Shown: positions 3,405 through 63,623 of the stretch, piece after piece | Layout of the letters: each line of letters opens with the position of its first letter | Numbering within the stretch: the stretch's first letter is position 1 | From: Paraspadella gotoi | Lineage: Eukaryota; Animalia; Chaetognatha | Length of the DNA: 64,000 nt | Assembly (NCBI GenBank): GCA_051294375.1 | Contig: JBJCIZ010000744.1 | Location: forward strand, 2,091,402-2,155,401 | Reading direction: 5' to 3' | Program-made: the position numbers and the translations under genes | Notes under the pieces: model-generated | The model's input: the letters and a program-made list of their open reading frames with translations, nothing else | Databases searched by the model: none | What the model was told of the DNA's origin: nothing

Positions 3405-3463
<59 letters not shown>

Positions 3464-3474
3464 AAAACAAAAAG

Positions 3475-33842: not shown

Positions 33843-33883
33843 CTGTTTCGTTGCAAAGTTTTGTTTAATAAATGTTAAATATA

Positions 33884-34576: not shown

Positions 34577-37500
34577 NNNNNNNNNNNNNNNNNNNNNNNN
34601 NNNNNNNNNNNNNNNNNNNNNNNNNNNNNNNNNNNNNNNNNNNNNNNNNNNNNNNNNNNNNNNNNNNNNNNNNNNNNNNNNNNNNNNNNNNNNNNNNNNN
34701 NNNNNNNNNNNNNNNNNNNNNNNNNNNNNNNNNNNNNNNNNNNNNNNNNNNNNNNNNNNNNNNNNNNNNNNNNNNNNNNNNNNNNNNNNNNNNNNNNNNN
34801 NNNNNNNNNNNNNNNNNNNNNNNNNNNNNNNNNNNNNNNNNNNNNNNNNNNNNNNNNNNNNNNNNNNNNNNNNNNNNNNNNNNNNNNNNNNNNNNNNNNN
34901 NNNNNNNNNNNNNNNNNNNNNNNNNNNNNNNNNNNNNNNNNNNNNNNNNNNNNNNNNNNNNNNNNNNNNNNNNNNNNNNNNNNNNNNNNNNNNNNNNNNN
35001 NNNNNNNNNNNNNNNNNNNNNNNNNCCAAAAATCGCATTAGCATTTAATCATTTTTCGAGATTTGAATTGTTTAAAGTTTCTTTTGCCTCAAACATTCGT
35101 GTTTTCTCGTCGGAACGATGTTTNNNNNNNNNNNNNNNNNNNNNNNNNNNNNNNNNNNNNNNNNNNNNNNNNNNNNNNNNNNNNNNNNNNNNNNNNNNNN
35201 NNNNNNNNNNNNNNNNNNNNNNNNNNNNNNNNNNNNNNNNNNNNNNNNNNNNNNNNNNNNNNNNNNNNNNNNNNNNNNNNNNNNNNNNNNNNNNNNNNNN
35301 NNNNNNNNNNNNNNNNNNNNNNNNNNNNNNNNNNNNNNNNNNNNNNNNNNNNNNNNNNNNNNNNNNGTTGTTCGTTCTCAGAGTAAAATATAGTTTTAAA
35401 CCGACTGATGTTATTCTTTCTATTTAACCAAATTAAGTGCGAAATTTTCACAAAAAAAAACAAAAGGAAATTCTACCGACATTAAAAAGTAAAGTGTCAA
35501 ATTCTGCCCACAATTGCGGTTTCATACCAAAAAATAGGAAAGTTCTCCTTTTTGGGTGGCACTATTTCACTATACGTCCCCAAAAAGCAATTAATTTCCC
35601 GCCAAAACCTCACCCTTCCCATATCCCGTCATCGCAACGAACTTACCCTCTTTTCTTCCTCAGAAGAGCCTCACCCTTCGCCCTCACCCTTCGCCCTCCC
35701 CCTTCAACCTCACTCTTCGCCCTTCGCCTTCACCCTTCGCCCTCACTCTTCGCCCTCACCCTTCAACCTCACCCTTCGCCCTCACCCGTCGAGGATAATG
35801 GTCATCGCGATTTCACTCACAACAAAACTCGAAACACTTTGTGGGTCGAAAGCGTAACGGTTGGGGGGGGAGTGAAAAAAAAACGGGAAAAACTGACTTC
35901 AACTGACTTTAACCATAAGGATTTACTCGAACGAAACGCCTGAATCTCTCTCTCTCTCTCTCNNNNNNNNNNNNNNNNNNNNNNNNNTCCTCTCTCTCTC
36001 TCTCCTCTCTCTCTCTGTCTCTCTCTCTCTCTCCGTTGTAATAGAAGGCGGCTACAGCAGCTTTTTAACTGCGGCTGGAGCCAGCTGCAGCAGGAGCGTC
36101 GCAGCGCCATTTCTTTTTATGCGCGCGTTGTCATCCCGCTTCCTTCGCCGCCGGTCCCGGCAGACTCTCGGTAATGACCGCCCCTTCAGGAACGCGTAAT
36201 TTCCAGCCGGTCTCTTCTCTTCTCATCTCTCTCTACTCTCTCTCATCTTCTCTTTCTCTCTTCTCTCTCTCTCTTCTCTCCTTTGATAAGAGCAATGAGT
36301 CCGGAAAAGTTAGAGAAATTCCTCTGAATCCGTGTTAAAGGCAAGAATCCCCTTCTCTTCTCTCTACGTCTCTCTTCTCTTCTCTCTCTTCTCTCATCTG
36401 TCTCTTGCTTACTCTCTCTTCTGTCTCTTTCGATCGAAAAACGTGTAACGTTGCCTCGTAACGCGTTTTCAGTTACATATATTACGTCTTGTGGTCGTTT
36501 GTGAGTTGATTTAAACGAGGAACAAGGTTGTGTTGTTGCTGGGATGAGACGAAGAGAAGAAGAGGAAAAGATTTAAAACTAAAAATAAATAAAAAGATTT
36601 TTTTTAAAAAACTGTGATAAGGGAAGACTTAAGGGAAGATTATTAGTTTTTCTTCAGTTACTTTTTTTAAAACGAGAAATAATGCATTTGAAAATCTAAC
36701 ACCAAACATATGTATGACCATTGACCATGTCATACTAAGAAAGAGAATTAGCAATACTAAGATGACTTCTCTCAATTTGACATTCCTGTTACCGTCGAGA
36801 ATGTCCTTCCCTATAAATGTATATTATTACATGACCGAGAAATGTCACTCCAACGGGCTAACAAGACGAGCGTTGTAATTCAAAACAAAGAAATCCCCGA
36901 GAATGTCACAACTGTCTAGGCGAAGATTGATTGTAGGTAGAACGACATGCCGAGGTGGTTTTTAAAACAGGAATGCCCGGAAGAACGTTCACTTCACTCA
37001 CAAATTGACATGGTGAAGTATCTCGAGGCATCAACGACAGTTGCCCGAGAACGTCACATCCCTTCACTAAATGACTGATCGGAGTTAATCACATGCCGAC
37101 GTCAATCGGACGATGAACAGGGGCAGTTCGAAGAACGTCCATCAGCCCATCACGCGCATTATGACTATCAATGTATCGCAGATGACGCGGCCATAGAACC
37201 GACGGAGTTCTTCCTTCTTCTCCGTGATATGTCTGAAACGGGCTTTTCAGAGTGCGCTCGGCCAGAGAGACGGAGAGACCATGGGTGCTGTTGTCGTTCG
37301 AACAGGAATAGGCTACAGTCACGCCAAGAGCACCAGAGGCTTCTAGGGTACACGGGAGGAGTGTCTTGAAGAGGAGAGAGATGAGAATGAGAGAGGGAGG
37401 ACGATAGAGAGAGTATTGGAGAGGAGAGGATGAGAGAGACCGAGATGAGTAGAGAGAGAGAGACGAGAGCAGAAGAGAGAGAGGGAGGAGAGAGAGAGTG

Positions 37501-40500
37501 AGTTGGAAAGCAGAACCAAACCACCACTTCAAGATGCGTTCTTGTTCTCCTCCGGTATCGAGGATCTGGGTGTATAACATGACTTTACCTCTCTGTCTCT
37601 CTCGCCTCGCTCTCCACTCATCTCCTCTCTCTCAATCTGCTCGTCACACTCACGTCTCCGTGCGCTCTCACGTTTCCTCGATTTTCCATCGCATTTGCGT
37701 CGGCGATCTACTCATTACCGTCTCTCTCTTCTAATCGCGACAGACTTCAAAAAGGGCGGATAGAGATAAGCGAGTCGGCGAGGACCAGTTTCTGCGATTC
37801 GTTGTTTCTGCCTTTCCTGTTTCGTTGTTTCTTTGTTTCGTTGTTTTCTTGTTCTTTAGTTTTATTGTTATATTGTTTTTTTCTTCGCTTTTTTATGCTT
37901 AGCTATTTCACAGTTCCTATTTTTATGTCTTACGGGTTCTACTTGTTTCGTTAATTGTTCCGTTGTTTCTTTAGTTTGTTATTTTTTATTAATTTTTGCT
38001 GTTTTTATTTTTCACGGTTTTTTTTATCGGTGTTCGGCGAAAATGCAAAAAATGTTTTCTTGATCGATTTAATTACGTACGAATATTTTGAACATCTGTT
38101 TTTTTTCAATAAACATAGACAACGACGGGATTTTAACTGCCACAGTCAAAGTTAAATCAATCGCTCAATGAAGTGATTCCACTTGATTTCATTACATATT
38201 ATTAGTATACTTTAAGTATCTTTCTATGTCCCTAGTTAATTTATAAACCGCAAGTAACTCTTCAAGGATTAATTTGAACGCAAATCTAACTTTAGATACA
38301 TTTCACCTTTTCATATCATACAGTAAATTAGCCCAGGTCCAATCTCTTTTATGTTCATTGTTTCATTTTCATGTTCTCTACAAAATTCCTCATCAACCCC
38401 CCCAATTTTTTCACTCTGCCAGCCACAAACCCCACTCGCAACAGTTCCCCCCACGCCCCTTGTCCTCCTTAACCCCCCAGCAAAAGAACAGCCGCCCTTA
38501 CCTCCCCCCACCTCCCCCCCTCCAAACCCAACTTGCTTCTCGCTTGAATATGTGATAAAGGCGTTCGCGGGCAGCCAAAGCCTCGTCGTAGAAACTGGCA
38601 TATGGGCGGAAATTATTAATGATTTGGTTCCTGGCTCCCCACTCCTCTCTCTCTCTCTCTCTCATCTCTCTCCTCTCTCTCTCTCTCTCTGTCAAATCTT
38701 TTCTTTCTTCTTTTCTCTGTTCATAACCGTTCCTTTTTCTCTCTCTATCTCTCACACACTTCCTCTCTTTATCCTCTCTTTTTTTTTATTCTATCTTTCC
38801 CTCCCTCCCTCTCTCTCTTATACCTTCCTCTCCTTTAATCCTCTCTTTATTCCATCTCTTTTTTTTTATTCTCTTTCCCTCCCTCCCTCTTTCCGTCGTA
38901 AGAGAGCGTCAAGGTCTCTCCGCGCCCCGCACGGCCTGACGACGCCGCGGCGCCCGGCACACGCGGCGCCCGGCACCCGCCGGCGCGAATTGAATATCCG
39001 GGGGCCGGACGCAATCAAGTGTCTCAATGTTGTTGCTGATGTCCGACGAAGGGGGGCGTGGGGCGGGGAAGAAGGAGGGAGAGGAGAAGAGGAGTCGAAG
39101 GGAGGAAACGGCAGAGATGGTGAGAGTGAAGGTAAGGTGAGTAAACGATTGACCGCGTGGAGCCATGAGAGAGATGGGATAAGAAAAGTTGCGATGCGGG
39201 AGGAAAGTTGCGAAGTTTGGAAAGAGCTTAAAAGAGAAGAATGAATTTGCTAACTTGAATTCGTTGGTCGAATGCTGAGGCGATGATTTCGATATTGAAA
39301 ACAATTGTGGGCGAAGATATGCTGACCTCCCTATTTGTAAAGCGACGAAGATGAAATAGTAAGGCGTTTCGCTGCTTAAATAGTAAGCGTTCCGCCTTAC
39401 CCTATTTTATATTACATTCGTTTATTTTATCTAAGAAAACAAAGATCCAAGTGTTGAAAAGTAAAAAAGCGACCGCTCTGAAACTTTCATTTCGCTCCGC
39501 CTTTAAATAGGAATAGCAGCCTTTTTTAAAGTAGCAAGCCCTACGCTCTTTGAGAGCGGCGCGGGCCTACGCCTTTAATGAGCAAGGCGTCAGAGTGGGC
39601 AATTTACGCCGAGAACGGTTAAAGCGATCGCTGCGTACGAGAAGCGTTTTTTTTTTGTATTCCGTTTGCGGAAGGAAGTTTTAGAGGGAGATTTGTTAGG
39701 GGATTAGGGTTTTCAACTAAACCTGTCCTTTCTTTTCTTTTTTGGTTTTTTTAGTTTCTAAAGTTTGTTATTTTATCATTTTAAAAAAAAAGCAAAGACT
39801 GTGAAAAGACGAAGAGTATTACCGTCTCTACCGGACGGTTCGGAAAATAATTAATTTAAACTTAAATTACATTAAAATTAAAAGACAATGAAAAGTCAAT
39901 AGAAACTATAATGTCATACTATAATTTCTAAATTACAAGAACGCGTGTTGTTAATAAATCTTTTAAGTGTGAGTGAATTTGAAAATTTAATTTTCTTGAC
40001 AATGACGCGGAGAAAACCGTTTGTCTGTGGTTTGACTCCAGACCTTCAACGATAACATTTCAAAAAATCCGAAAAGTTCTTCAACGTCCGGAAGTCAAGC
40101 ATCAAGAAAACGCTTGATAGCATTGAAAATCTATTTAGTTTTGCTTGCCTAAAATTAAACCTGTCCTAAGGACCTGCAGACATGATAGCTTATTTATTTA
40201 ATGAGCTTTTATAGCAGGTTGTATTAATTTAAGTACTTTTATTTTGCTTTTTTTTGCCGACTATCTTAGAACCATTCCAAAAGTTCGATAGACTCTCTCT
40301 CGCGATTTCTATCGACAATTCTCAATTAGCCTTAGTATTTTGCAACAAGTTTCTTTTTTCTGGGAATTTAAGTTAGTTTTTGCAGTTTCGACTAGTATTG
40401 TGTCATTAACATCTTCATTTGATTTACTACTTCAATTGAAACTGCGAGGGGTCAGATTACTCTGGGAGTTTTAGTTTGAAAGCTTGTAGGGTTCTGCTTA

Positions 40501-42814
40501 TGATATTATTTTTGCAAGCACTGATGAAGGGCTCTAAGTGAAAACCGAAACATGGTCTGACTAAAATTTGGGTTGTCAATTAAATAAAACTGTTTTTGTC
40601 TAAGATTGATAGAAACTTTTTAGCACAACAGTTGGGGCAGGATAGTCTTATTTATTGACAAAAAGTTTAATTTTATATTTGGATTGCTACACATAAGAGT
40701 CAGCTAAGCCGCGCACAACCCAGCCAAATTTAAAAAACACGGCTTGTTCCCCCGCGCCTCTGGCTGGCGAAATTTTGTTTCCCGACTGCTGACTCCGTCC
40801 AGACGTTGACATTCGAAACGCGACAAGCGGAAAAAGGCAGATTCGCGCGAAAAAGTTTTTTTTTTTTTTTTGAATTTCGTTTTTCAACTTTCTGTTTGAA
40901 ATTTCCGAGAGTCAATTTTGAAAATGCGGTCGAAAGTCGCGTCCAACTGTTTCGGAGGAATGATGGTACGAGACTGTTTTCGAGCTATTACGGATGATCT
41001 TGAATTTGCAATACTACTTTGAATTAAGGAATATGTCACTTTCGGGATCTATTATTATCCGCTTGTCAGAGTTCTTGGCTTCCATACTACTTCTTTTTTT
41101 CATTTTCTGTTTTTCTGTTTTCAGGTTGGATAAAAAGCATATTCACTTTTATTATGGTAATGTATTTAATTTAATTATTTAATCTTCAAAGATCACGGAG
41201 AAATTTTACGCCGTCGTGTTAATGATATTCGTATTCAGCATATTTATGCACAAGACTTTTTGATTATAATGAAACTGTATCGAATTCGTCCTATTTCGTA
41301 TCAAATCATTATTAAACAGTATCAAATTGCTATCATTAAATATAAAATGATTTAAAATTTTATCCCGTTCGCCGATCGGAGGAGAAAAGAGAAGTTGAAC
41401 TGATCGACTCAACATTCTATGAGGATCACAAGATTCAGAAGAAAAGCTGCGCGATTTTTCGAGTTGAACGGACTTGATTATCAAATCGGTTTCATGATGT
41501 AGCAGAGAGAGAGAGGGAGGAGGAAGAGAGAGAGAGAGAGAGAGAGCCCCGATCCAAAAATATGCAAATGAGGATTCGAGGCTGCCGCGGGCGGGCCGAG
41601 GCGAGGAAGCGGCGGCGAGAATCACCAAGCTGAGAGGAAACAGACGGTTTGCGTGGAAGTTTTCATCGCAGATGCGAAAGGGAGTAGCAGAGAGCGGGGT
41701 TAGGAAGACGAGGTTGGTTGGTGAGCGAAAGGTGGTTTCGGCGTGTTTTAAACGGCATTTGGGGTGGTTATACTGAGATGAATAGTAGCGGGGGAGATTG
41801 AGGACAGCAGGAGCGGAGATGGAGCGACATGGAGCCAAAGATATAAAATTAAATTAAAAAATGGACTGAAAAAAAGCTAATTATAGCATAGATGCGGATC
41901 AAATGTCATAAAGAAAAAGATATTTATGCAGCAAGTTAATTAAGGCGATGCAGTTCAGGATTAAGAATGATGATAGTTATTCACGAGTTCATTCGATATT
42001 TTGAACCTCTGAGTTTGCACGTTAATTTAAAAATAAATATTAAACATTAATGACTGGATGAAAATGTTTTATTTTAAATCTATTCTGTGGTTTGGATTAT
42101 CAACTGGTTTATCAATTTGCCATTGCGGTCGTGTCCTCGCTTGTCGCTCGGCGCTTCGCCTTCCCAAGAATTCCGCCTTTCGTCATTTTCTTTTTCGTGT
42201 CCCGGTGTCTTCATGCATCCTTCAGGAAGTTGCCGCTTGTGTCCGCGAGCAAGTTGGACCGTAACTGCTGGCGACGTCGACGTCGTCGTCGTCATCACCC
42301 TATCTGTCGTTCGTGTCATCTCCGTCGTCGTCGTCGTTGTCTTCGTTGTTCGTCATCACCCTTATTGTCGTCTGTTGTCATCCTCCGTCGGTTCGTTCGT
42401 CGTTTGTCGTTTCGTTGTCGTCGTCCTCGTGGTTCGTACGGGACAAATTAGGCCGTTGGAATTTTTCGATTGCCGTTGTGAGTCGGAAACTTACGCAGAA
42501 GTCACGTGACTAACCTCGCCTGATCACGTGACTAACCTCGCCTGATCCACTGTGGTCGGCGATATCGATTTCGCTTCGCGACATTTTTTAACGGATTTTT
42601 AAAATACGGTTTGATCCAAGTGGAATTTGAATTGAAAATCTTATTGAGTAATACAAGGCAGAGCATTGGTTTCGGTGAATTAAAAAAAAAAAATCACAAT
42701 TCCGTGATATTTAATGAGGATGTGACACGTGACTCGAAGTTCTTCCACTCAACTTATCGTTCAAGCGAAAAAAAAAAAGGTTTTTGAATTCGAATCCGTC
42801 ACCGTTTTTTTTTA

Positions 42815-45800
42815 ATGGCGAGCGTGGTGGCGTTGGCAGAGGGTGGCGATGGAGAGGGGTGGCGGTGGGAGAGCGGCATTGGGCGGGCAGTGGCAGGGTG
42901 CGAAGGTGCCGTCGGTAGGGTGGGTAGAGCGGGTAGTGGGTCCGTTGTGGGAAATGGTTTTCGTCGTTGGGAAAAGCCTCGGGCTGCAGTGGCATCCAAT
43001 TTGATGGAGATAAAATTACTTTCTCAATGAACCTTAACGGTAAATTGATTATTTACAGAATTATTCTCTTTCTCTCGAAAACGACGCATACGTAGAAAAC
43101 GTATTTTTTAACCAAACTATATTTTTAATAAAAACAAAAAAATTGGAATTTATATTATCTTGCAAGTGTGATGGAGGCCTTAAACTACCCGAAGCCTGAC
43201 CAAAGTCAAGGGACAAGATAGCTTATTTATTAAAATTGGATGGATAATTTTTATATTTGGTTGTACAATTTCATATATATATATGTATAATAAAACACCG
43301 CGAAGACGTAATTTCCTATCGCTTTTTCATATCCTTAAACACAACGACAGGCGAAAACACAACGACGACAACAACGTCGAGCTCTGCCGGGAAAAAAAAA
43401 CCAAGTTTACAGAATCCGATGCTGAAAAACTTGTACGACGAGTGCAGTCGGAACTTGAAAGACAAAGTGCCACTGTCTTTCAGTCAGTTGTGGTTTATTT
43501 TTTCTCTTGAAAATGTTTTTCATTTCGCTATAATTTACAAATACTTATTATTGTTTAATTAATGAATAATTGATATCAATATCAGTATTGGTTATGCGGT
43601 TTGGGCGTCGGCGTGTTCCTGCTGACCAAATTCAAAACTTTCCCGCGAATGTTTTTCCATTTTAACCTTAATTAAATTTAAATTATCAATTAATTAAATT
43701 AAAAAATTTTTTAATTTAAAAATTAGGTTAAGGTGTCGGCATAGGGTGCCTAGATAGAACAGGAGGGATGTGGTTAGGGTTAGGTAAGAATAGGGTATGC
43801 GGATATTATTTAAAACAAGGTTAAATAATAAGGAATGACATTAGCCGCTTTTGGAAAATGAGAGGCCCGGAAAATGAACTTGCAAATCATTCGCGATTCT
43901 CGTCGCTTCTGCTTCTTATTTGTGGACGTGCTCGTCGACTGCCTCGTCGCCCGGGAAATTCCTCGGCAACACCTTTCGCGATGGGATCGCCAGCTCTTCC
44001 CCGCCGCCGGCCGCCGCCGCAAGCCGCAGACAACGCGACTCCGCCCTCAACTCACCTCTTTCTCTCGTTTTCGTGTGGCGAACTTACCCGCCGACTTCAA
44101 CGCGCTCCATTTCTCCCACCTCTTGTGGCTTCGTCTTCCGGGCTGCCTTTGTTCAATTTGCCCTCACCCTTCGCAAGCTTTGGCTTCGCCCGCGACGCGG
44201 AGTTGCGTTCCTTCCGCCGGCGTGGCGCGCGCCTCATTCTCGTATCGTCCCTCTTCATGCTCGACCCCACGAGCCTCTACGCCTTCGGATCGCGTCGCTG
44301 CTGGGCGCTGCGGTCCACGGCAGCTTCCTCCGGCGGCGGTGCCACGCTCGAATCTCCGCCTTCGCCGCCTACTGCATAAAGCATGCGGAGAGATCGTGGC
44401 CGGAGGCCTTCCGCAATTCCTCACCCAATTGCCTGATGACGAGCGCAAGGGAAACTCGGGTCTGCGCGCAATTGACGGACGTTGCAGAGGTTTCCGTCTG
44501 CCGGCTTCGGCGTGGACCATCGCGCTTTCCGGCAGTCGCTTAATTTCTCGTCGTCGACGACCGGCGCCTCTTTCATCGGGCGGCCTGGCTACCGACTTTC
44601 TCGCCGCCAGACGGCGTTCGTTGGCTTTCGTGGGTGAAGTGAGCTGCGCCGTCTGCGGCGGCCACGTGGGCTCGATCCTTCGCCCTATTACCATCGAATC
44701 GGGGAACAGCGTCTTACCCGGAGTCGCGCTGTCTCTCTTCCCCTCCTCTTCGCCTCGACCGGTGGCGACCTCTCGTCTGAGCGCTGCGTGATCGACCGGA
44801 GACGGAATCCGAATCGAGCTCGGAAATGGCTCGTGCACGGTGTGTTCGTCGGTCTTCTGCGCTTCCAAGGTCGCCAACCATGCTCGTCCTCTGGCTCCTC
44901 TTCTTCCTCGACGGCTTCCTTTCCGAGGATCGCCAAACTCTCCAGCAACAACAGGCGTCGTCCACTTTCTTTCTTGCTTACTTTGTTTTTCTCCTTTCCT
45001 CTCAGTTCGTTTTTAGGGTGCCGTCGTTGTTTTGGTGGGACGAATCCAGCATGAGCAGTGTGAGGTTGCGGGGGGAGGGGTGCGGAAGAATGGGAGTTAT
45101 CAAAGAGGAAACCAAAATTGCTTTGTGTGTTCGTGTTCAGATCGGACCACAAACATTTCCTCTTTGTCCTTCTTCATGGCATTTTATAAAATAAATTTAT
45201 TTTCACTCGATGACCCAAACTTATAAATTTTAATTACTACGATTTCAAACCTCTATTAATTTCTTTTTAAATTTAGACCCAAACCTAATTAATTTTTGTT
45301 GATTATGACCATAACTTAATATATTTTTTTTATTGACGCCAAACTTGAATGATTTCATTTCATTATGACCCAAACGCTAATTAACCTTTACTTTGATTTT
45401 CGAATTTATTAACCCGAACTTAATCAACTAAGCTGACCCAAAATGCACCCAAACTTGACCCAAAACTGCACCAAAATGACCCAAACTCGACTTCTCCACC
45501 CAGGAGGTCTCGTTACGACGTCTTCGAATATACTCTGTTCCGCCGGGGCTCGAGTTCATCGAGGAACGGACGACGAAGCAGAGAGAGCAGAGAGACGAGA
45601 CATCGCGAGAGCGAGAGGGCAGGAGAAACGCAAAGAGAGGAGACGCCGGAGAAAGAGTTTCTCCTTGAATTGGATGGAGAGGACAGAGACGACGAACAAC
45701 GACGACAACGACCTACATTGGCGCCAAATCCCGGGCGTCACTTCACGCCAGCCGTCTGGTCTTCCTCGTCTCCGACGCGCTGGCGCAAAGACGACTCGGA

Positions 45801-48480
45801 TTGCGTTGTCGAGTCGCCGTCGTCGCGTCGTCGTCGCCTTTCGTCTTCGCCGTTGGCGTGACGTTGTGCGCCGATCTCCGTGGCGCAGGTTCGGGCTACG
45901 AGCTTCAAGCTACGAGTCGTTGCGATTCGGAACGCTCGACTTCGCTGGTGGCGCAGAAGAGGGAGTACGGACGTGTCGAAAAAAAGTTTTCAGTACGCAC
46001 ATAATGATTATCATTAGGCAAATTTCGTATTTTTTTATTAATTGAAGAACTTTCATGTAAAAGTTTTAAACGTAAGATATAAATAATATCTTAAGTAATT
46101 GTTAATGAAATGATTCCAATTTTATTCAACTTCAAAAAGTGAAAATAATATGCATATCACGTGAGAATGATAGAACCAGTCCTTGCGAGAGTTGCACTAA
46201 AAATTACAGACTGGGAGAGGAGTCTTGATTGAAAGCTCGCCAAAGTCCTGCTATGTCAGAGGGATAGAGGCCTGTCCAAAGTCAAAGGGTAAGTGAGCTT
46301 GCTTATTGAATAAATGATTAATTTTATATTTAGTCATAATCAAAAAATTAGTCAATTTTTATGCGTTTTTAAAATTTTTAGATAGGATTTTACAATTTTT
46401 TCTTTTATTTTTATTTTTTTAATTTTTGCTTTTTGTGTTGTTGTTGTTGTTGTTGTTGCTTGTATCTGTTGTTGTTGTCTGTTTGTTCACTGTTGTTGTT
46501 GTTGTTGTCTCTCTATCTTTTATCTCCCTTATCTTTTCGCCGCTTTCTCCCACCCTTCATCAAACTCCCCCCTCTCTCCCCAAGGGGGACCTGGGCGATC
46601 GATCTGCGTGGGAGGCGTCTCGCAGCCGACTAGCGTGAAGAGGATCGTCCCCTGTGCGTGATCCTGCCGAGGCCCGTCAAATTGGGTGCAGAGGATCGAC
46701 GCCATTTGCGGTTTCGCAAGCGGCCGGACGTGAGCCCCGCCTCTCCGCCTTTTCGTTCGCTTCCGCTCTGCCTCGGCGGAACGAGGAGAGGCCTGCAGCG
46801 ATTGTAAGCAAGTTCGGGTGGGAATCGGCTGCCCTTCGAGTGTGCCACGCTCGGCAAGAGGCTCCACTTCGTCGCGACTGTTCTTTGACTCACGAGCGGA
46901 GGTGAGTTGTTTTGGGTTGGATGCTCTTCGTTGTCTTTGTCGTCCCACGGGTCCTTCCTTTGATATCACTGTTTTTTAAAAACTGTTCACAAATTTCAAT
47001 CAAAATCACTTATTTCATTCGCGAAATATGAAATAAATTTTCAAAATATTATTCATTATTTCCTGACGCGACTTCAACATTAAAACTCCTCAAAGCATTT
47101 TCTTCATTTCTTCACATTCACTCGATTTTTTTTTTTTTTTACTTTGACAAAATTTTACCGACGTTAATTCAATTTAATGCAACAAATTAAATAACTTGCT
47201 TTCTCTAAATGTTTCGCTAAATCAATCCACTCTCTCGAATTTCTCACAAAATGTCAACAACCCTCTTCCATTTTAACAATTTTTTCACAAAAACAAACAT
47301 CGGGATGTTCCAGGAATCACAAGTTTCTCCCTTACCCCCCCACCCACTTAGACTCTCCTTCGCCGCGGTCGAGGCGCCGCTGCGACCGAAACGGCGCCGC
47401 CGGACGCCTGCGCCGCTCGGGCGGTCACGCGGCGACGCTGAGCACGCCGGCGGCTAGACGGCGGAGGTCCTGTCTCGGTATGCGCCTGCGTGCAAGATCC
47501 TTATGTACGCGTGGGGCTGAGGGAGGGACCGAGAAGCATGCGGTTGGCAGTGGGAGGACGGATCGAGGTTGGGTCCGGACGCATCCGCGTGTGGCGAGAG
47601 GAGACGGATAGAAGAGCAGACTGAAGACGATGACGCCTCATCGACCGTCGACGGACGAACTCCACGACGAAGGGGCACAGTAATGGGGGAAAAGGGTCCT
47701 TATATTATCCCGAATCGACCCATCAGATTTAAATTTAAAAGGTAAAGTTATGATGTTTTTAGGTTTAATAAAGTTAATATAAATTAGAGTGAGTGAAGGA
47801 TCTTGAATGCCGTAAACCCACCATTAAACTTTGTAAAGTCAGGGGGCAAAATAGGCTTGTTTAATGAGAGAATTGATTGATTCTATATCGCGGTTGTCCT
47901 AATTTCTCATAGTATTTGACTAATTGTCAATTATTTACTTACAAAATTCATTTCTTCTCTTTAAAGGGGCGAAATACGGCGTTCGTCTTGCGAAATACCT
48001 GCCCGCCCACGAATCCTGGCTGCGTCGCTCGACGCCGGCCGATTCTCTTCCTCCACGCCGGCCGGACGCGTCCATCGGTCGCGGCGTCGGGTCGACAGCA
48101 ACTGCGACGAGCGCCGCTGGCCTCTGCCGGGCGTCTCGGTGACGGAGGCTCCTCGCTCGAGTTCGCGTTGACAGGCGGCGGTGCGCGCAGGCGACGCTCT
48201 CTGCGTCAAGGCTTTTAACGGCTGGCGCGAGATGGGCACGCTGCGGCAGACCCGGAGTCGGCTTGCCGGTTGGGGATGAACGATAACGATTCCGTGGTTG
48301 TGGAATTGCGAGCGGAGCGGAGCTGGCGGGACCGTGTGTGAGGCGGCGGACTGGGAGGCCGCGGCAGCCGGATTGGGAAGAGCGGCGACTCGGTACGGAT
48401 CAATGCGACGGAAGTTTGCAGGACGAGGATGGAAGGCGAGGAGGATGACCGCTGTGCTTGAACGGTTGCGCGGGCGAAGG
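42815..48480 (+). other. frameshift-ridden duplicate of the XKR-SRCR-CTLD gene; uncorrected-read copy more likely than a pseudogene
   Basis: Same exons as 57498-62648 with dense random indels; supplies the CTLD2 sequence hidden by the 62649-63041 gap. Confidence 0.8.
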
Positions 48481-48862
48481 TGGACGAGCATGGCTGGGGG
48501 TGGTTGTGGTGAGGGGGGGAAGAGCAGATTCTTATCAACCGACAAATTCGACGATTGTGAAATGTTGGATTTCTTTAAATAGTTTAAAGGCTTTTAAAAT
48601 TATATAATAAAGAAAAAGGGTGAACGCACGCTTTCTCTCTCTCTCTCTCTTCTCTCTCTCTCTTCTCTCTCTCTCTCATCAATCTCTCTTACTACCTCAA
48701 AACGTATTATTATGTTATTGACTTCTTGGTTTCAGTTGTTTTATGATTTTACAGATTATATTGCAGTTTTTGCATTTCTTGCATTTTGAGCATTTTCAAA
48801 CTCAGATATTGGAGAAAGCGCGCAGGAGAAAGAAACGTTACATGTTTCTTTTACTCTTCCTT

Positions 48863-48899
<37 letters not shown>

Positions 48900-49610
48900 T
48901 CGTCCACTTACGTCACTCTGTGGGACCTCCTATTGTCTTTAGCGCCGAAGAGGCTGCCGTCGCGAGGGCTAGCCGTCGGAATGGGGGACCCCGCGCCGCC
49001 GCCGCCCGCCGCCCGCCGCCCGCCGCCGCCGCCGACTAATTGGATCGTTTATAGATCAGCTAGTTTCTTGATTCTTTGATGTGCGTCGGACGCTGGAGGA
49101 GGCAGGAAGAGGAGAGGAGGAAGTAGGAGGAGGAGGTGGGAGCGGATCAAGTTTAGTCCTCACCATTTTACATCGCTTTACAATGTAAAGTATAATGTAC
49201 TTAAAATCGTAGTTGGTAAGTTAATAATACAATATACATATAATGAGGCATCAGTAGATATTCAATTTTGGACGCCCACAGTTACGAAGAAAATAGATAT
49301 TTAGCATTTAGTCCTATGAAGCCAAAACGATTCGCAAATTAATAAACAGTTTAGAATTTATTAAAACTAATATTAACTGATTATATTATTTTTACTAGAA
49401 AATAAAATACCTGAAAAAAAAACGTGAGTTTCTGAACTTATTGATTTATACCCAATTTCATAACAATAAAATATACAACACTAAAGCTGAAAAAAAAGAA
49501 GAGAAAATTAAATAACGTAAATTTTCACAAAAACTTTTTTCTTTCTTTTCCGTCCGGAGGGTGGATTTCATCTCTCTCTCTTTTGGAGTATTCGAATGAA
49601 CGACCCGATC

Positions 49611-53467: not shown

Positions 53468-53504
<37 letters not shown>

Positions 53505-57497: not shown

Positions 57498-57709
57498 ATG
57501 GCGAGCGGGTGGCGGTGGGAGGGTGGCGATGGGAGGGTGGCGGTGGGAGAGCGGCATTGGGCGGGGGGCAGTGGAAGGGTGGAAGGTGCCGTCGGTTGGG
57601 TGGGAGCGGGTAGTGGGTCGTGGTGGGAAATGGTTCGTCGTTGGGGGAAAAGCCTCGGGCTGAGTGGATCCAATTTGATGGAGATAAAATTTTTCTCATG
57701 AACGTAACG
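57498..57709 (+). CDS. candidate exon 1 of the XKR fusion gene (Gly-rich N-terminus; indels in G runs)
   Basis: ATGGCGAGC..., GC-rich, ends ...GSNLMEIKF..., donor ACG|gtaaat; also present in copy 1 at 42815. Confidence 0.45.
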
Positions 57710-57856
57710 GTAAATTGATTATTACAGAATATTTCTCTTTCTCTCGAAAACGACGCATACGTAGAAAACGTATTTTTTAACAAACTATATTTTTAATAAA
57801 ACAAAAATTGGAATTTATATATCTTGCAAGTGTGATGGAGGCCTTAAACTACCGAA

Positions 57857-57932
57857 GCCTGACCAAAGTCAGGGACAAGATAGCTTATTTATTAAATGGA
57901 TGGATAATTTTTATATTGGTTGTACAATTTCA
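57857..57932 (+). repeat. member of a dispersed short repeat family (other copies near 54938, 55375, 60810, 62305 and their copy-1 equivalents)
   Basis: Consensus-like cctg.ccaaagtcagggg.aagatagcttatttatt...taattttatattggttgtac. Confidence 0.65.
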
Positions 57933-58008
57933 TATATATATATGTATATATAAACACCTCGAGACGTAATTTCCCTATCGCTTTTCATATCCTTAAACAC
58001 AACGACAG

Positions 58009-58093
58009 GCGAACACAACGACGACAACAACGTCGAGCTCTGGGGAAAAAAAAACCAGTTTACAGAATCCGATGCTGAAAACTTGTACGACGA
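58009..58093 (+). CDS. candidate exon 2 of the XKR fusion gene
   Basis: acgacag|GC...GA|gtgagt, phase 1 to 2, open: GEHNDDNNVELWGKKNQFTESDAENLYD. Confidence 0.55.
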
Positions 58094-58508
58094 GTGAGTC
58101 GAGAACTGAAAGACCAGTGCCACTGTCTTTCAGTCAGTTGTGGTTATTTTTTCTCTTGAAAATGTTTTCATTCGCTATAATTTACAAATACTTATATTGT
58201 TAATTAATGAATAATTGATATCAATATCAGTTATTGGTTATGGTTTGGCGTCGGCGTGTCCTGCTGACCAAATCAAATCTTTCCCCGCGAATGTTTTTCC
58301 ATTTTAACCTTAATTAAATTAAATTAATCAATTAATTAAATTAAAAAGTTTTTTAATTTAAAAATTAGGTTAAGGGTTTCGGATAGGGGCTAGATAAGGG
58401 AGTATGGTTAGGGGTTAGGTTAAGAATAGGGTATGGGATTATTATTTAAAACAAGGTTAAAATAATAAGGAACAGAATTAGGCCGCTTTTGGAAAAGAGA
58501 GCCCGAAA

Positions 58509-59644
58509 ATGAACTTTCAAATCATCGGATTCCTCGTCGCTTCTGCTTCTTATTTTTGGGACGTGCTCGTCGACTGCCTCGTCGCCCGGGAAATCCTCGC
58601 CAACACCTTTCGCGATGGATCGCCAGTCTTCCCCGCCGCCGCCGCCGCCGCAGCCGCAGACAACGCGACTCGCCTCACTCACCTCTTCTCTCGTTTCGTG
58701 TGGCGAACTTACCCGCCCGACTTCAACGCGCTCCATTTCGTCCTCACCTGCTTGTGGCTCGTCTCCGGCTGCCTTGTTCAATTTGCCCTCACCCTTCGCA
58801 AGCTTTGGCTTCGCCCGGACGCGGAGTTGGCGTTCCTTCCGCCGGCGTGGCGCGGCCTCATTCTCGTATCGTCCCTCTTCATGCTCGGACCCACGAGCCT
58901 CTACGCCTTCGGGATCGCGTCGCTGCTGGCGCTGCGGTCCACGGCAGCTTCCTCCGCGGCGGTGCACGCTCGAATCTCCGCCTTCGCCGCCTACTGCAAG
59001 ATGGGAGAGATCGTGGCCGAGAGCCTTCCGCAATTCCTCACCCAATTGCTGATGACGAGCGCCAAGGGAAACTCGGGTCTGCGGCAATTGACGACGTTGC
59101 AGATGGTTTCCGTCTGCGGCTCGGCGTTGACCATCGGTTCCGGCGTCGCTAATTTCGTCGTCGACGACCGGCGCCTCTTTCATCGGCGCCGCTACCGACT
59201 TCTCGCCAGCAAGACGGCGTTGTTGGCTTTCGTGGTGAGTGAGCTGGCCGTCTGCGGCGGCGTGGCTCGATTCTCTTTCGCCCTTACCCATCGAATCGGG
59301 GACAGCGTCTTACCCGGAGTCGCGCTGTTCTCTCTTCCCCTCCTCTTCGCCTCGACGGTGGCGACTCTCGTCCTGGCGCTGCGTGATCGACCGGAGACGG
59401 AATCCGAATCGAGCTCCGGAATGGCTCGTCGACGTGTGTTCGTCGTCTTCTGCGTCTTCAAGGTCGCCAACCTGCTCGTCCTCTGGCTCCTCTTCTTCCT
59501 CGACGGCTCCTTTTCCCGAGGAGTCGCCAAACTCTCCAGCAACAACAGCGTCGTCACTTTCTTTGCTACTTTGTTTTTCTCCTTTCCTCTCAGTTTCGTT
59601 TTAGGGTCGTCGTTGTTTTGGTGGGACGAATCCAGATGGAGCAG
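58509..59644 (+). CDS. XK-related (XKR/CED-8 family) scramblase domain exon; the acceptor is probably at 58470 or 58482
   Basis: YFWDVLVDCLVA (helix-1 DxxxD) and KMGEIVAESLPQFLTQL (ExxxESxPQxxxQL) family motifs, about 8 TM helices plus a re-entrant helix; ends at donor AG|gtgagg. Confidence 0.9.
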
Positions 59645-60082
59645 GTGAGGTTGGGGGGGAAGGGGTGGGGAGAAGGTGAGTTACTCAAGAGGAAACCAAA
59701 ATTGCTTTGTGTTTCGTGTTTCAGATTCGGACCACAACATTTCCTCTTTGTCCTTCTTCATGCATTTTATAAAATAAATTTATTTTCACTCGATTGACCC
59801 AAACTTATAAATTTTTAATTACTTACGATTCAAACCTCATTAATTTCTTTTAAATTAGACCCAAACCTAATTAATTTTTGTTTGATTATGACCATAACTT
59901 AATTATTTTTTTTTATTTGACCCAAACTTGAATGATTTTCATTTCATTATGACCCAAACGTAATTAACTTTACTTTGATTTCGAATTTTTAACCCGAACT
60001 TAATCAAATTAGCTGACCCAAAATGACCCAAACTGACCCAAACTGACCCAAAATGACCCAAACTCGACTCTCTCTCACCCAG

Positions 60083-60515
60083 GAGTCTCTACGACGTCTC
60101 CGAATATCTCTGGTCCGCCGCGGCTCGAGTCATCGAGGAACGGGACGACGGAAGAGAGAGAGAGAGAGACGAGACATCGCGAGAGCGAGAGGTCAGGAGA
60201 AAGAGAGAGGGAGACGCGGAGAAAGAGTTTCTCCCTGAATTGGATGGAGACAGAGACGACGACAACGACGACAACGACCTACATTGGCGCAATCCCGGGC
60301 GTCACTTCACGCCACCGTCTGGTCTTCCTCGTCTCGACGCGCGCCAAAGACGAACCGGATTAGCGTTCGCCGTCGCCGTCGTCGTCGTCGTCGCCTTCGT
60401 CTTCGCCGTTGGCGTGACGTTGGCGCCGATCTCCGTGGCGCAGGTCGGCTACGAGCTCAAGTACGAGTCGTGCGATTCGGACGCTCGACTTCCGCTGGTG
60501 GCGCAGAAGAGGGAG
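60083..60515 (+). CDS. fusion gene exon: charged cytoplasmic linker, type II TM helix, start of SRCR
   Basis: ctcacccag| phase 2 matches the XKR exon; 433 nt open: SLYDVSEYLW...ELDGD...RQRRTGLAFAVAVVVVVAFVFAVGVTLAPI...QKRE|gtacgg. Confidence 0.85.
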
Positions 60516-60970
60516 GTACGGACGTGTCGAAAAAAGTTTCAGTACGCACATAATGATTATCATTAGGCAAATTTCGTATTTTTTTTATTAATTGAAGAAC
60601 TTTCAATTAAAAGTTTTGAACGTAAGAATAAATAATATCTTAAGTAATTGTTAATCGAAATGAATTCAATTTATTCAATTCAAAAAGTTGAAATAATATG
60701 ATATCACGTGAATGATAGTGAAGCCAGGTCCTTTGGAAGTGACTAAATTACAGACTGGGAGAGAGTCTTGATTGAAAGCTCGCAAAGTCCTGCTATGTCA
60801 GAGGGATAGAGGCCTGTCCAAAGTCAAGGGTAAGTGAGCTTGTTTATTGAATAAATGATTAATTTTTATATTAGTCATAATCAAAATTAGTTCATTTTAT
60901 GCGTTTAACAATTTTTAGATAGGATTTTAAATTTTTCTTTTATTTTTATTTTTTTAATTTTTTTGCTTTT

Positions 60971-61041
<71 letters not shown>

Positions 61042-61112
61042 CTCTCTACTTATCTCCCTTTATCTTTCCCGCTTTCTCCCACCCTCATCAAACTCCCCCC
61101 TCTCTCCCCAAG

Positions 61113-61400
61113 GGACCCTGGGGATCGATCTGCGTGGAGGGTCTCGAGCCGACTCAGGTGAAGAGGATCGTCCGCGTGATCCTGCGTCAATTGGGGGCAG
61201 AGGATCGACGCCATTGCGGTTTCGCCAAGCGGCCGGACGTGGCCCTCGCCTCTCCGCCTTTTCTTCGTCCGCTCTGCCTCGGGGACGAGGAGAGCCTGAG
61301 CGATTGTAAGCAGTTCGGGCTGGGAATCGGGCTGCCCTTCGAGTGTGCCCGCTCGGCCAAGAGGCTCCACCTCGTCGCCGACTGTTTGACTCACGAGGAG
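61113..61400 (+). CDS. fusion gene exon: SRCR (scavenger receptor cysteine-rich) domain
   Basis: ccccaag|...GAG|gtgagt, 288 nt, phase 0; GPWGSIC...VILRQLG...CLGDEESLSDC...C...C are SRCR signatures. Confidence 0.87.
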
Positions 61401-61847
61401 GTGAGTTGTTTGGGTTGGATGTCGTCTTCGTTGTCGTTTGTCGTCCCCACGGTTCCTTCCTTTGATATCACTTTTTTTAAAAACTGTCACAAATTTCAAT
61501 CAAAAATCACTTATTTCATTCGCGAAATATGAAATAAATTTTCAAAATATTATTCATTATTTCCTGACGTCGACTTCAACATTAAAACTCCTCAAAGCAT
61601 TTTCTTCATTTCTTCACATTCACTCGGATTTTTTTTTTTTTTTTTACTTTGACAAAATTTTTACCGACGTTAATCATTTTTAATGCAACAAATTATAACT
61701 TGCTTTCTTAAATGTTCGCTAAATCAATTCACTCTCTCGAATTCTCACAAAATGTCAACAACCTCTTCCATTTTAACAATTTTTTCACAAAAACAACATC
61801 GGATTTCCAGGAATCACAAGTTTTCCCTTACGCCCCCCCCCACTTAG

Positions 61848-62168
61848 ATCTCCTTCGCCGCGGTCGAGGCGCCGCTGGACCGAAACGGCGCCGCCGACGC
61901 CTGCGCCGCTCGGGGCGGTCACGCGGCGACGCTGAGCACGCCGGGCAAGACGGCGGAGGTCCTGTCTCGGTTGCGCCTGCGTGAAGATTCCTTGTACCGC
62001 GTGGGGCTGAGGGAGGGACCGAGAAGAGGCGGTTGGCAGTGGGAGGACGGATCGAGGTTGGGTCCGGACGATCCCGCGTGGGCGAGAGGAGAACCGGATA
62101 GAAGAGAGACTGAAGACGATGACGGCCTCATCGACGTCGACGGACGACTCCACGACGAAGGGGCACAG
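61848..62168 (+). CDS. fusion gene exon: C-type lectin-like domain 1
   Basis: cttag|...CAG|gtaatg, 321 nt, phase 0; AADACAARGGHAATL...YRVGL...WQWEDGS...WARGEPD. Confidence 0.87.
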
Positions 62169-62437
62169 GTAATGGGGGAAAAGGGTCCTTATTTTCCGAA
62201 TCGACCCTATTTCAGATTAAATTTAAAGGTAAGTTAGTTTTTAGGTTTAAATAAAGTTAATAAATTAGAGTGAGTGAAGGTCTTGAATGCCGTAACCCAC
62301 CATAAACTTTGTAAAGTCAGGGGCAAAATAGCTTGTTTAATGAGAGAATGATTGATTCTATATCGGTTGTCCTAATTTCTCAATAGTATTTGACTAATTG
62401 TCAATTTTATTACTACAAATTCATTTCTTCTCTAAAG

Positions 62438-62648
62438 GCGAAATACGGCGTCGTCTGCGAAATACCTGCGCCCACGAATCCGGCGTCGCTCGACGCCGGC
62501 GATCTCTTCCTCCACGCCGGCCGGACGCGGTTCCACGGCGCGGCGTCGTCGACGAGCAACTCGACGAGCGCCGCTGGCCTCTGCCGGCGTCTCGGTGCGG
62601 AGCTCTTCGCTCCGAGTTCGGCGTTGGAGGCGGCGGTGGCGGGCGACG
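62438..62648 (+). CDS. fusion gene exon: end of CTLD1 (VVCE) and start of CTLD2; runs into the gap
   Basis: ctaaag| phase 0; AKYGVVCEIP...AAGLCRRLGAELFAP. Confidence 0.82.
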
Positions 62649-63120
62649 NNNNNNNNNNNNNNNNNNNNNNNNNNNNNNNNNNNNNNNNNNNNNNNNNNNN
62701 NNNNNNNNNNNNNNNNNNNNNNNNNNNNNNNNNNNNNNNNNNNNNNNNNNNNNNNNNNNNNNNNNNNNNNNNNNNNNNNNNNNNNNNNNNNNNNNNNNNN
62801 NNNNNNNNNNNNNNNNNNNNNNNNNNNNNNNNNNNNNNNNNNNNNNNNNNNNNNNNNNNNNNNNNNNNNNNNNNNNNNNNNNNNNNNNNNNNNNNNNNNN
62901 NNNNNNNNNNNNNNNNNNNNNNNNNNNNNNNNNNNNNNNNNNNNNNNNNNNNNNNNNNNNNNNNNNNNNNNNNNNNNNNNNNNNNNNNNNNNNNNNNNNN
63001 NNNNNNNNNNNNNNNNNNNNNNNNNNNNNNNNNNNNNNNNNTTCGACGATTTGAAATGTTGGATTTCTTTAAATAGTTTTAAAGGTTTTAAAATTAGTAT
63101 AATAAGAAAAAGGGTGACGG

Positions 63121-63171
<51 letters not shown>

Positions 63172-63348
63172 AAATCTCTCTTACTACCTCAAAACGTATT
63201 ATTATGTTATTGACTTTCTTGGTTTCAGTTGTTTATGATTTTACAGATTATATTGCATTTTTTGCATTTTGCATTTTGCATTTTTCAAACTCAGGATATG
63301 TAAAGCGCGCAGGAGAAAGAAAAGTTACTGTTTCTTACTCTTCCTTTG

Positions 63349-63384
<36 letters not shown>

Positions 63385-63479
63385 TCGCACTTACGTCACT
63401 CTTGTTGGCCTCCTATTGTTTTAGCGCCGAGAGGCTGGTCGGAGGGCGTAGCCGTCGGAATGGGGGGACCCGGCGCCGC

Positions 63480-63527
<48 letters not shown>

Positions 63528-63588
63528 ACTAATTGGGATCGTTTATGAGATCAGCTGTTTCTTGATTCTTGATGTGCGTCGGACGCTG

Positions 63589-63623
<35 letters not shown>

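What the first reader, a model, noticed from the sequence alone, without database searches (positions are those of the whole stretch)
58509..62648. XK-related lipid scramblase fused in frame to an extra TM helix, an SRCR domain and two C-type lectin domains
Seen: the 379-aa XKR ORF appears to stop at 59648, but its end is a donor (AGC AG|gtgagg, phase 2). The next acceptor (60083) is phase 2 and open. Exons 60083-60515, 61113-61400, 61848-62168 and 62438-gap all join with matching phases and no stops. Known: XKR8/XKR4/XKR9 and CED-8 are phosphatidylserine scramblases with cytoplasmic termini, and XKR8 needs a separate single-pass partner (basigin or neuroplastin). SRCR and CTLD are extracellular recognition domains. 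The topology is self-consistent: cytoplasmic XKR C-terminus, charged linker, RQRR, then a TM helix, which places SRCR-CTLD-CTLD outside. Inference: a ligand-sensing scramblase, or one with a built-in chaperone/receptor, coupling glycan, microbe or cell recognition to PS exposure, engulfment or fusion. I know of no described XKR with this architecture, and ORF-based annotation would split it into two genes.
Basis: partly seen in the sequence, partly recalled or inferred. Interest (0 to 1): 0.92.

Follow-up and report, generated by a model that had tools for sequence, protein, structure and literature searches.

The report
Lipid scramblase fused to receptor arm
This animal gene is predicted to splice an XK-family membrane protein, of the kind that flips the 'eat-me' lipid to the cell surface, onto its own outward-facing recognition arm; related proteins carry the same fusion in one reading frame, and the arm likely steers lipid flipping to where the cell touches a ligand.

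Summary
The fusion is very likely real and belongs to an unnamed family. The five-exon model is exact: GT-AG, phases 2/0/0/0, 796 open codons up to an N gap. Pfam misses the XK domain here, but 13 of 49 relatives examined carry XK domain, linker, extra helix and SRCR-like domain in one ORF, 11 of them with a lectin-like part too. A model of one relative matches XKR4/9/8 (Z 15.6-13.8), SRCR (Z 8.7) and the C-type lectin fold (Z 6.2-6.7) in that order. Five of XKR8's six essential charged residues are kept in register (D18, D22, K164, E167, E171); no caspase motif lies in the linker. Not shown: transcripts across the junction (no RNA data), scrambling, any ligand, the second lectin domain. Sugar-binding motifs are not family-wide, and the extra helix is unlike basigin. 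Best reading (0.5): a likely active, caspase-independent scramblase that its own receptor arm places at ligand contacts. Direct ligand gating: 0.2. No description found in 10 literature searches. New variant of a known kind; interest 0.76.

The parts
58509..59644 (+). Exon 1: XK-related membrane domain, residues 1-378 (predicted 8 membrane-spanning helices, both ends in the cytoplasm)
   Evidence: ORF and donor CAG|GTGAGG; 46 hits, best 35-38% identical; relative's model matches XKR4/9/8; Atlas XK-related 0.92
58560..58574 (+). DxxxD in helix 1 (D18, D22), likely equal to XKR8 D26/D30
   Evidence: Sequence; aligned with DxxxD of P0033, P0035, P0040, P0042, P0045; XKR8 residues from PMC8500837. 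Equivalence inferred from motif and position
58998..59021 (+). K164-x2-E167-x3-E171, equal to XKR8 R134/E137/E141
   Evidence: Profile alignment to 7DCE_X, E 0.15; K/R 13 of 14, E 13 of 14, E 14 of 14 relatives with a residue
59645..60082 (+). Intron 1, phase 2, 34% GC; holds the apparent TGA (59646-59648), an AATAAA (59773) and TGACCCAAA repeats
60083..60515 (+). Exon 2: rest of the conserved helix after the last XK membrane helix (Y382), charged linker, RQRR, extra helix, first strands of the SRCR domain; no Met
60360..60416 (+). Extra membrane helix (residues 472-490), predicted N-in, C-out
   Evidence: Hydropathy 3.08; 4 K/R before, 1 after; same bias in 13 of 14 fused proteins
61113..61400 (+). 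Exon 3: core of a divergent SRCR domain, conserved across the family
   Evidence: BLASTP E 6e-16 to 4e-9 to fused relatives; Pfam SRCR E 0.032; relative's model vs SCARA5 SRCR Z 8.7, rmsd 2.8, 105 of 109 residues
61848..62168 (+). Exon 4: C-type lectin-like domain 1 with EPD at the sugar-site loop (62091-62099); last strand in exon 5
   Evidence: phmmer to CLEC4D E 3.3e-6; Pfam Lectin_C E 2.8e-4, below cut-off
62438..62648 (+). Exon 5, known part: end of lectin domain 1 and start of a possible second lectin-like domain; runs into the gap
   Evidence: Open in phase; no domain hit
62649..63076 (+). Assembly gap (N, 62649-63041) and the likely end of the coding sequence just after it
   Evidence: end inferred from GC fall and from the second copy
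35672..49529 (+). Error-rich second copy of 50401-64000 (87-89% identical, indel-dominated), likely an uncorrected long read left in the assembly; its 48197-48546 spans the gap and shows a QPD motif and a possible closing G-V-V strand
   Evidence: 692 extra and 415 missing bases, 520 mismatches in 12,940 columns; exons hit as hard as introns

Best explanation
This is predicted to be one spliced gene for a nine-pass membrane protein in which an XK-related domain that likely still scrambles lipids is tethered, through a loose cytoplasmic linker and an extra helix, to its own outside SRCR plus lectin-like arm, which would bind a surface ligand and so gather the scramblase at that contact to expose phosphatidylserine locally. 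Shown: the splice phases, the same domain order in single ORFs of 13 relatives, the three folds in a relative's model, the kept charged residues, the lack of a caspase motif in the linker. Inferred: transcripts join exon 1 to 2; topology (positive-inside rule); scrambling activity; activation without caspase; the arm acting by placement or clustering rather than by a direct pull. The ligand is unknown; for the family it is more likely a protein or lipid surface bound by the conserved SRCR domain than a Ca-dependent sugar, though this member may have gained or kept sugar-site motifs.
For: Fusion: 13 of 49 relatives carry XK + SRCR-like parts in one ORF, all 13 XK-matching ones of 500 residues or more; they and the window protein fall on one side of a 100/100 branch, apart from five distant XK-only rows, at 26-67% pairwise identity. 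Exon 2 onward has no Met up to the gap. Two junctions fall inside conserved elements. Folds: Z 15.6/14.3/13.8 to XKR4/9/8, next row 9.0; SRCR 8.7; lectin-like 6.2-6.7 (model pLDDT 78.6). [quoted passage not shown] Tether rather than lever: linker 77-208 residues, 3-23% identical, against 27-40% for XK and 26-34% for SRCR.
Against: No RNA reads were seen. The junction gain is small (3.2 bits) and absent with a short profile. R183 and both stabilising salt-bridge residues that could be mapped (D129, R214) are not kept, on a weak alignment. None of the 13 fused relatives' ORFs holds helix 1 with D26/D30 equivalents; a missing first exon is likely but not shown. Purified rat XKR9 did not scramble (PMC8298096), so the fold does not guarantee activity. 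The fold evidence comes from a relative; the window protein alone folded poorly (pLDDT 46). The window's lectin domain does not match the relatives' lectin profile (8-25% identity).
Confidence: 0.5

Rival explanations
1. Ligand-gated scramblase: binding or clustering of the outside arm moves the extra helix and the conserved cytoplasmic helix after the XK domain, releasing a plug like XKR8's tail, and switches scrambling on.
For: XKR8 is held shut by its C-terminal tail (PMC10938166, abstract); here that tail is continuous with a receptor arm, starts with a conserved helix (Y382 kept in 14 of 15 relatives) and has no caspase motif. The distance from extra helix to SRCR core is nearly fixed, 33-39 residues in 13 of 14.
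Against: The linker between that helix and the extra helix varies from 77 to 208 residues and is unconserved and is unfolded in the model (pLDDT under 50 at 350-397): a poor lever.
Confidence: 0.2
2. Adhesion or recognition receptor in which the XK domain no longer scrambles and serves as a membrane anchor or a dock for cytoplasmic partners (for example a VPS13-type lipid bridge, as human XK is).
For: R183, D129 and R214 equivalents are lost; helix 1 is absent from all 13 fused relatives' ORFs; the window protein misses the Pfam model altogether. XK binds VPS13A (PMC9436381, search listing only).
Against: K164/E167/E171 are buried charges kept across 26-67% identity, and the window keeps D18/D22; the residue before the first homologous D/E fits a splice acceptor in 11 of 11 relatives (8 clusters, background 0.5), so helix 1 is likely on an exon that was not called.
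Confidence: 0.17
3. The extra helix and SRCR are a built-in basigin/neuroplastin-like chaperone that folds against the XK domain and brings it to the surface.
For: XKR8 needs a single-pass partner for surface delivery (PMC8500837); the helix is present in 14 of 14 fused proteins.
Against: Opposite orientation to basigin (type I, PMC8298096); no conserved acid like basigin E230; helix only 4-23% identical among relatives; XKR9 was not found to bind basigin, so a partner is not a family need.
Confidence: 0.07
4. Two genes, or a short XK-only product as the main form: transcripts stop at TGA 59646-59648 and use the AATAAA at 59773.
For: In-frame TGA and an AATAAA 125 bases on; one formal ATG-to-donor mini-exon at 59949-59959; two relatives (P0001, P0003) end in the linker.
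Against: AATAAA occurs in 31 of 49 AT-rich 440-base stretches of the window; the mini-exon lies in a tandem repeat; the donor is strong (8 of 9); stopping there would cut a conserved helix; relatives are fused without any splice model. A minor short isoform is not excluded.
Confidence: 0.06

Closest known systems
XKR4, XKR8, XKR9, XK and CED-8 (Pfam PF09815 XK-related scramblases)
   Same: Fold of the membrane domain (relative's model Z 15.6, 14.3, 13.8; 249-273 residues aligned); the E-S/T-x-P-Q helix; five of six XKR8 pathway charges; predicted cytoplasmic ends.
   Different: 11-13% structural identity; ninth helix and outside SRCR + lectin-like arm in the same chain; no caspase motif in the tail; R183, D129 and R214 equivalents lost; the second re-entrant helix seems short or missing in the model (read, not tested).
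XKR8-basigin/neuroplastin complex
   Same: An XK domain next to a single-pass helix that carries an outside domain.
   Different: Here covalent, opposite orientation, SRCR/lectin-like instead of Ig, no conserved acidic contact residue; contact with the XK domain not shown.
Class A scavenger receptors (SCARA1, SCARA5, MARCO) and other SRCR proteins (CD163, DMBT1, Mac-2BP)
   Same: SRCR fold (Z 7.8-8.7, rmsd 2.5-2.8); type II orientation as in class A receptors (recalled).
   Different: Divergent, below the Pfam cut-off; the cysteine of the usual V-C-R-Q-L-G motif (recalled) is replaced; SRCR sits next to the membrane with the lectin-like domain beyond; no collagen or coiled-coil stalk.
Type II C-type lectin receptors (CLEC4D/MCL, Mincle, DC-SIGN)
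   Same: Exon 4 matches their domain (E 3e-6 to 5e-4) and has EPD in register with CLEC4D.
   Different: Inner cysteine pair and WND missing in domain 1; relatives lack the long loop altogether; joined to a multi-pass protein.

Membership tests
XK-related (XKR) family | XKR fold of two helical repeats | tested here: met
   Relative P0054 (34% identical over the domain) matches XKR4/9/8 as top three of 48,161 chains, Z 15.6-13.8, next 9.0. The window protein's own single-sequence model was too poor to use.
XK-related (XKR) family | Pfam PF09815 at its cut-off | tested here: inconclusive
   Window protein: no hit. 27 of 46 relatives hit PF09815 at E<=0.05, 13 of them above the 24.8-bit cut-off. 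Atlas top clusters XK-related at 0.92, recognition under its mark.
XK-related (XKR) family | Six charged pathway residues of XKR8 (D26, D30, R134, E137, E141, R183) | tested here: inconclusive
   Five kept (D18, D22, K164, E167, E171); R183 aligns with V218. Helix-4 residues from a weak alignment to 7DCE (E 0.15), helix-1 residues by motif.
XK-related (XKR) family | Stabilising salt bridges R98-D129 and R214-D295 | tested here: not met
   D129 aligns with F159 and R214 with V248's register; R98 and D295 could not be mapped. The family has its own near-invariant E245 (14 of 15).
XK-related (XKR) family | Lipid scrambling | not testable with these tools
   Needs a liposome or cell assay.
Caspase-activated XKR4/8/9 subgroup | Caspase-3 site in the cytoplasmic tail | tested here: not met
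   No DxxD-[GSA] (recalled consensus) in the window protein; 3 of 15 relatives have one, each beyond the extra helix, i.e. predicted outside.
SRCR superfamily | SRCR fold | tested here: met
   Relative's residues 428-560 vs SCARA5 Z 8.7, rmsd 2.8, 105 of 109; SRCR chains fill ranks 6-39; window exon 3 matches that relative at E 3e-13.
SRCR superfamily | Canonical six- or eight-cysteine pattern (recalled) | tested here: not met
   C530 and C578 invariant in 13 of 13, but the cysteine before R-Q-L-G is replaced; Pfam score below cut-off.
C-type lectin-like domains | CTLD sequence and fold (domain 1) | tested here: met
   E 3.3e-6 to CLEC4D, 101 PDB sequences at E<=10, the 60 shown all lectin-domain proteins. 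Relative's last domain Z 6.2-6.7, rmsd 2.3-2.7 over 86-93 residues.
Ca-dependent sugar-binding C-type lectins | EPN/QPD plus WND and the inner disulfide (recalled) | tested here: not met
   Window domain 1 has EPD only; WND position reads L-H-D, inner cysteines absent. Relatives have gaps at the loop in 13 of 13 and no WND.
C-type lectin-like domains | Second CTLD in exon 5 | tested here: inconclusive
   No hit; frameshift-tolerant score 76 vs shuffles 60 +/- 8, max 84 of 40; motifs A-x2-L-C-x3-G-A, QPD and D-Q-C are suggestive but lie in a gap or in the error-rich copy.
Basigin/neuroplastin-type chaperones | Type I helix with a conserved acidic residue pairing with the XK domain | tested here: not met
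   Charge bias gives type II; no conserved acid in the helix; basigin facts from PMC8500837 and PMC8298096.

The most novel reading that the evidence does not exclude
A family of receptor-scramblases: single-chain proteins in which ligand binding by an outside SRCR/lectin arm directly switches on lipid scrambling, so that a living cell exposes phosphatidylserine at a chosen contact without caspase or calcium; an expanded set of paralogs with variable lectin tips would give different triggers.
Probability: 0.2. Interest if true: 0.93.

Novelty: new variant of a known kind. Interest (0 to 1): 0.76.

Why it matters
The XKR scramblases in the papers read are switched from inside the cell (caspase, kinase) and have almost no outside domain. 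How living cells expose phosphatidylserine only at one spot (for fusion, engulfment, pruning) is, from my own knowledge, still open. A natural chain that joins an XKR to a recognition arm is a ready tool to test whether an outside ligand can place or gate scrambling, and a design template for ligand-steered scramblases. It also shows an old, expanded animal family that Pfam-based annotation misses: no window exon reaches a Pfam cut-off, and all fused relatives looked up are unnamed.

Tried and rejected
No genome is held for the window, so paralogs were not searched; no RNA data were obtained, so the junction is untested by reads. Word-indexed search with exon 1 found nothing among 7,998 candidates; the full HMMER scan found the family. 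PDB sequence search with exon 1 gave two unrelated weak rows. Single-sequence fold of exon 1 was unusable. The search for related loci found no relative in JGI metagenome or viral contigs, so no neighbouring DNA of relatives was seen and a viral origin has no support. Complex prediction of a relative's XK domain with its own extra helix + SRCR gave no verdict (0.01, alignment not used). Foldseek alone gave no row at E<=0.001; lectin chains are not among the 50 rows. P0028 (diatom chitin synthase) among the hits has no XK-profile match and was dropped as chance. The short junction profile did not extend past the junction. The bacterial promoter scan has no bearing on an animal intron. The Atlas search with a relative's arm gave only leads under 0.8, lectin clusters. 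Muscleblind next door did not place the organism beyond 'animal' (best 74%). A true tandem duplication for 35672-49529 was rejected because indels dominate and hit exons as hard as introns. Four look-ups of earlier findings were empty.
Full report
1. The observation. All coordinates hold. Joining 58509-59644, 60083-60515, 61113-61400, 61848-62168 and 62438-62648 uses GT donors and AG acceptors in phases 2, 0, 0, 0 and gives 796 codons without a stop before the N gap at 62649-63041. Exons are 61-72% GC, introns 31-34%. The TGA that seems to end a 379-residue ORF lies inside the donor CAG|GTGAGG (8 of 9 consensus positions). The host is an animal: a muscleblind exon at 3466-3696 is at most 74% identical to the named molluscan, vertebrate and other animal proteins listed, with no close relative; the lineage stays open. 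No genome is held and no RNA data were obtained.

2. The names were not given by standard tools. Exon 1 has no Pfam hit; exon 3 hits SRCR at E 0.032 and exon 4 Lectin_C at E 2.8e-4, both below cut-off. A word-indexed search found nothing. A full HMMER scan of 1.84 billion representatives found 46 proteins, the best 35-38% identical; 27 of the 46 hit PF09815 XK-related at E<=0.05, 13 above cut-off. A profile search added three more.

3. The fusion is a family trait. Of 49 relatives examined, 13 carry the XK domain, a linker, a hydrophobic helix and an SRCR-like segment in one ORF; these are all the XK-matching ones of 500 residues or more. Eleven of the 13 continue into a lectin-like segment, two of them only in part (the profiles were built from 13 rows that include 10 of these, so P0054-56 and the window protein are the independent tests). 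Of the rest, P0028 is a chance hit, P0001 and P0003 end in the linker, four distant XK-only proteins and one fragment group apart, and the others are fragments. A profile of relatives aligns to the spliced model as one domain over residues 59-639 (E 2e-104), across three junctions; searched against the six raw frames it finds exon 1 (E 3e-70) and exon 3 (E 3e-15) on its own, exon 2 only weakly (E 0.23) and not exons 4 or 5. In a tree of 31 XK domains the 14 fused proteins lie on one side of a 100/100 branch at 26-67% identity; the window protein is a long, compositionally odd branch with no close kin. The fused relatives looked up are unnamed ENA proteins, on contigs of 2.2-4.2 kb.

4. The first junction. 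It falls inside a conserved helix that follows the last XK membrane helix (Y382: Y in 14 of 15 relatives, F in one). Of 138 AG sites, 60083 scores best, 229.4 bits against 226.2 unspliced, and 1 of 500 shuffles of the 21 residues after it did as well. The gain is small, and a shorter profile showed none. From exon 2 to the gap there is no Met; one formal mini-exon in intron 1 lies in a tandem repeat. The AATAAA at 59773 is unremarkable (31 of 49 AT-rich stretches have one), but a minor short isoform is not excluded. The second junction lies inside the SRCR domain.

5. Folds. The window's exon 1 alone folded badly (pLDDT 46). Relative P0054 (665 residues, 58-row alignment) folded at pLDDT 78.6. 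Among 48,161 chains its residues 1-322 match XKR4 (Z 15.6, rmsd 4.3, 256 aligned), XKR9 (14.3) and XKR8 (13.8), next row 9.0; residues 428-560 match SRCR domains (SCARA5 Z 8.7, rmsd 2.8, 105 of 109); the last domain matches C-type lectin-like chains at Z 6.2-6.7, which is middling. Foldseek gave no row at E<=0.001 but listed the same three kinds. The Atlas places exon 1 with XK-related clusters of 408-440 residues (0.92; recognition 2128, under its mark of 2300). Window exon 4 matches CLEC4D at E 3.3e-6; exon 3's eight PDB hits are all SRCR proteins, all weak.

6. Topology (inferred). Basic loops lie where XKR topology puts the cytoplasm (7 K/R in 218-236, 5 in 292-309), sequons N52 and N345 lie in predicted outside loops. 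The extra helix has 3 or more K/R before it in 13 of 14 fused proteins and at most 2 after it in 14 of 14; the parts beyond hold 5-16 cysteines and 1-7 sequons. So the arm is outside.

7. Is the scramblase core intact? In XKR8, D26, D30, R134, E137, E141 and R183 are needed for scrambling (PMC8500837, parts 1-3 of 9 read); XKR4's D125, D129 and E313 are the same residues (PMC12334663, passages). The family profile's best PDB hit is XKR8 (E 0.15) and puts K164, E167, E171 on R134, E137, E141; these are kept in 13, 13 and 14 of 14 relatives with a residue there. D18 and D22 form the helix-1 DxxxD shared with five relatives that have that helix. R183, D129 and R214 are not kept by the same weak register. 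Against the reading: the 13 fused relatives' ORFs lack helix 1. In 11 of 11 relatives (8 clusters) whose ORF runs upstream of the first homologous D/E, the residue before it fits a splice acceptor (background 0.5; a pattern found after the fact), so these ORFs are likely genomic exons that miss exon 1. If so, the whole fusion lies in one exon in relatives and needs no splice model. I could not see their DNA.

8. Regulation. No caspase-3 motif lies in the window protein; the three among 15 relatives lie outside the cell. [quoted passage not shown] The linker here is 77-208 residues and 3-23% identical, the extra helix 4-23%, against 27-40% for XK and 26-34% for SRCR. Selection keeps the XK core, the SRCR domain and their linkage, not a rigid coupling. 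That favours placement or clustering at a ligand (0.5) over direct gating (0.2), a non-scrambling anchor (0.17), a built-in basigin (0.07) or two products (0.06).

9. The lectin tip varies. The window's domain 1 has EPD but no WND and no inner cysteine pair (motifs recalled). Relatives have no long loop there (13 of 13 gaps), and the window's domain does not match their profile, so it may have been replaced or diverged fast; exon 4 is flanked by phase-0 introns. A second lectin domain is plausible but unproven: no hits. The window holds an error-rich copy of 50401-64000 at 35672-49529 (87-89%; 692 extra, 415 missing bases, 520 mismatches), likely an uncorrected long read. Its 48197-48546 spans the gap and shows QPD, D-Q-C and a closing G-V-V, but a frameshift-tolerant match to domain 1 scored 76 against shuffles of 60 +/- 8, max 84.

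10. Novelty. Ten searches of the held library (listings and abstract starts only) showed no XKR fused to SRCR or lectin domains. A survey of 1,747 SRCR genes in 29 animals does not mention XKR in its main text (PMC10855680, passages); its architecture table S6 could not be seen and may bear on this. An acoel immune-gene paper has no mention in text or four supplements (PMC12849515). InterPro was not available, and most subscription papers are not in the library. Earlier findings of this scan: none. Verdict: a real, undescribed architecture on a known family; works like an XKR with a built-in recognition arm; not a member of the caspase-activated subgroup; function untested.

Noticed in passing
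window 35672-49529: A 13.9-kb false duplication: an indel-rich copy of 50401-64000, likely a raw long read used in gap filling. It would be annotated as a pseudogene paralog.
   Followed up: yes
window 3463-5736 (+): Muscleblind-like exons (CCCH zinc-finger pair, Pfam E 7e-27); at most 74% identical to named animal proteins.
   Followed up: partly
window 14165-14912 and 18016-23835: An exact 355-base repeat on either side of a 10-N gap, and three inverted repeats of 330-650 bases at 82-86% with many indels: more likely assembly scars than biology.
   Followed up: no
window 28339-34750 (-): GC-rich exon-like ORFs with acidic and 7-residue repeats and one hydrophobic helix followed by basic residues (near 34300-34450); no Pfam hit of note. 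Probably one spliced membrane-protein gene.
   Followed up: no
window 51729-52088 (+): A 119-codon ORF of ordinary composition with no Pfam hit; possibly a mobile-element remnant.
   Followed up: no
window 63425-63548 (+): A GC-rich island after an acceptor-like site; one frame begins with R-L-V-G-G, as SRCR domains often do (recalled), then runs into a CCG repeat. Could be a further exon or chance.
   Followed up: no
proteins P0033, P0035, P0040, P0045, P0031: A separate unnamed group of short XK-only proteins (159-375 residues) in ENA assemblies, nearest outgroup to the fused family in the tree.
   Followed up: partly
proteins P0002, P0007, P0052, P0055: These relatives add a cysteine-rich tail after the lectin-like domain, in place of the window's possible second lectin domain.
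   Followed up: no
window 57201-57251 and 59795-60062: A 22-base exact tandem repeat with CACGTG boxes 1.3 kb upstream of the ATG, and TGACCCAAA arrays in intron 1.
   Followed up: no
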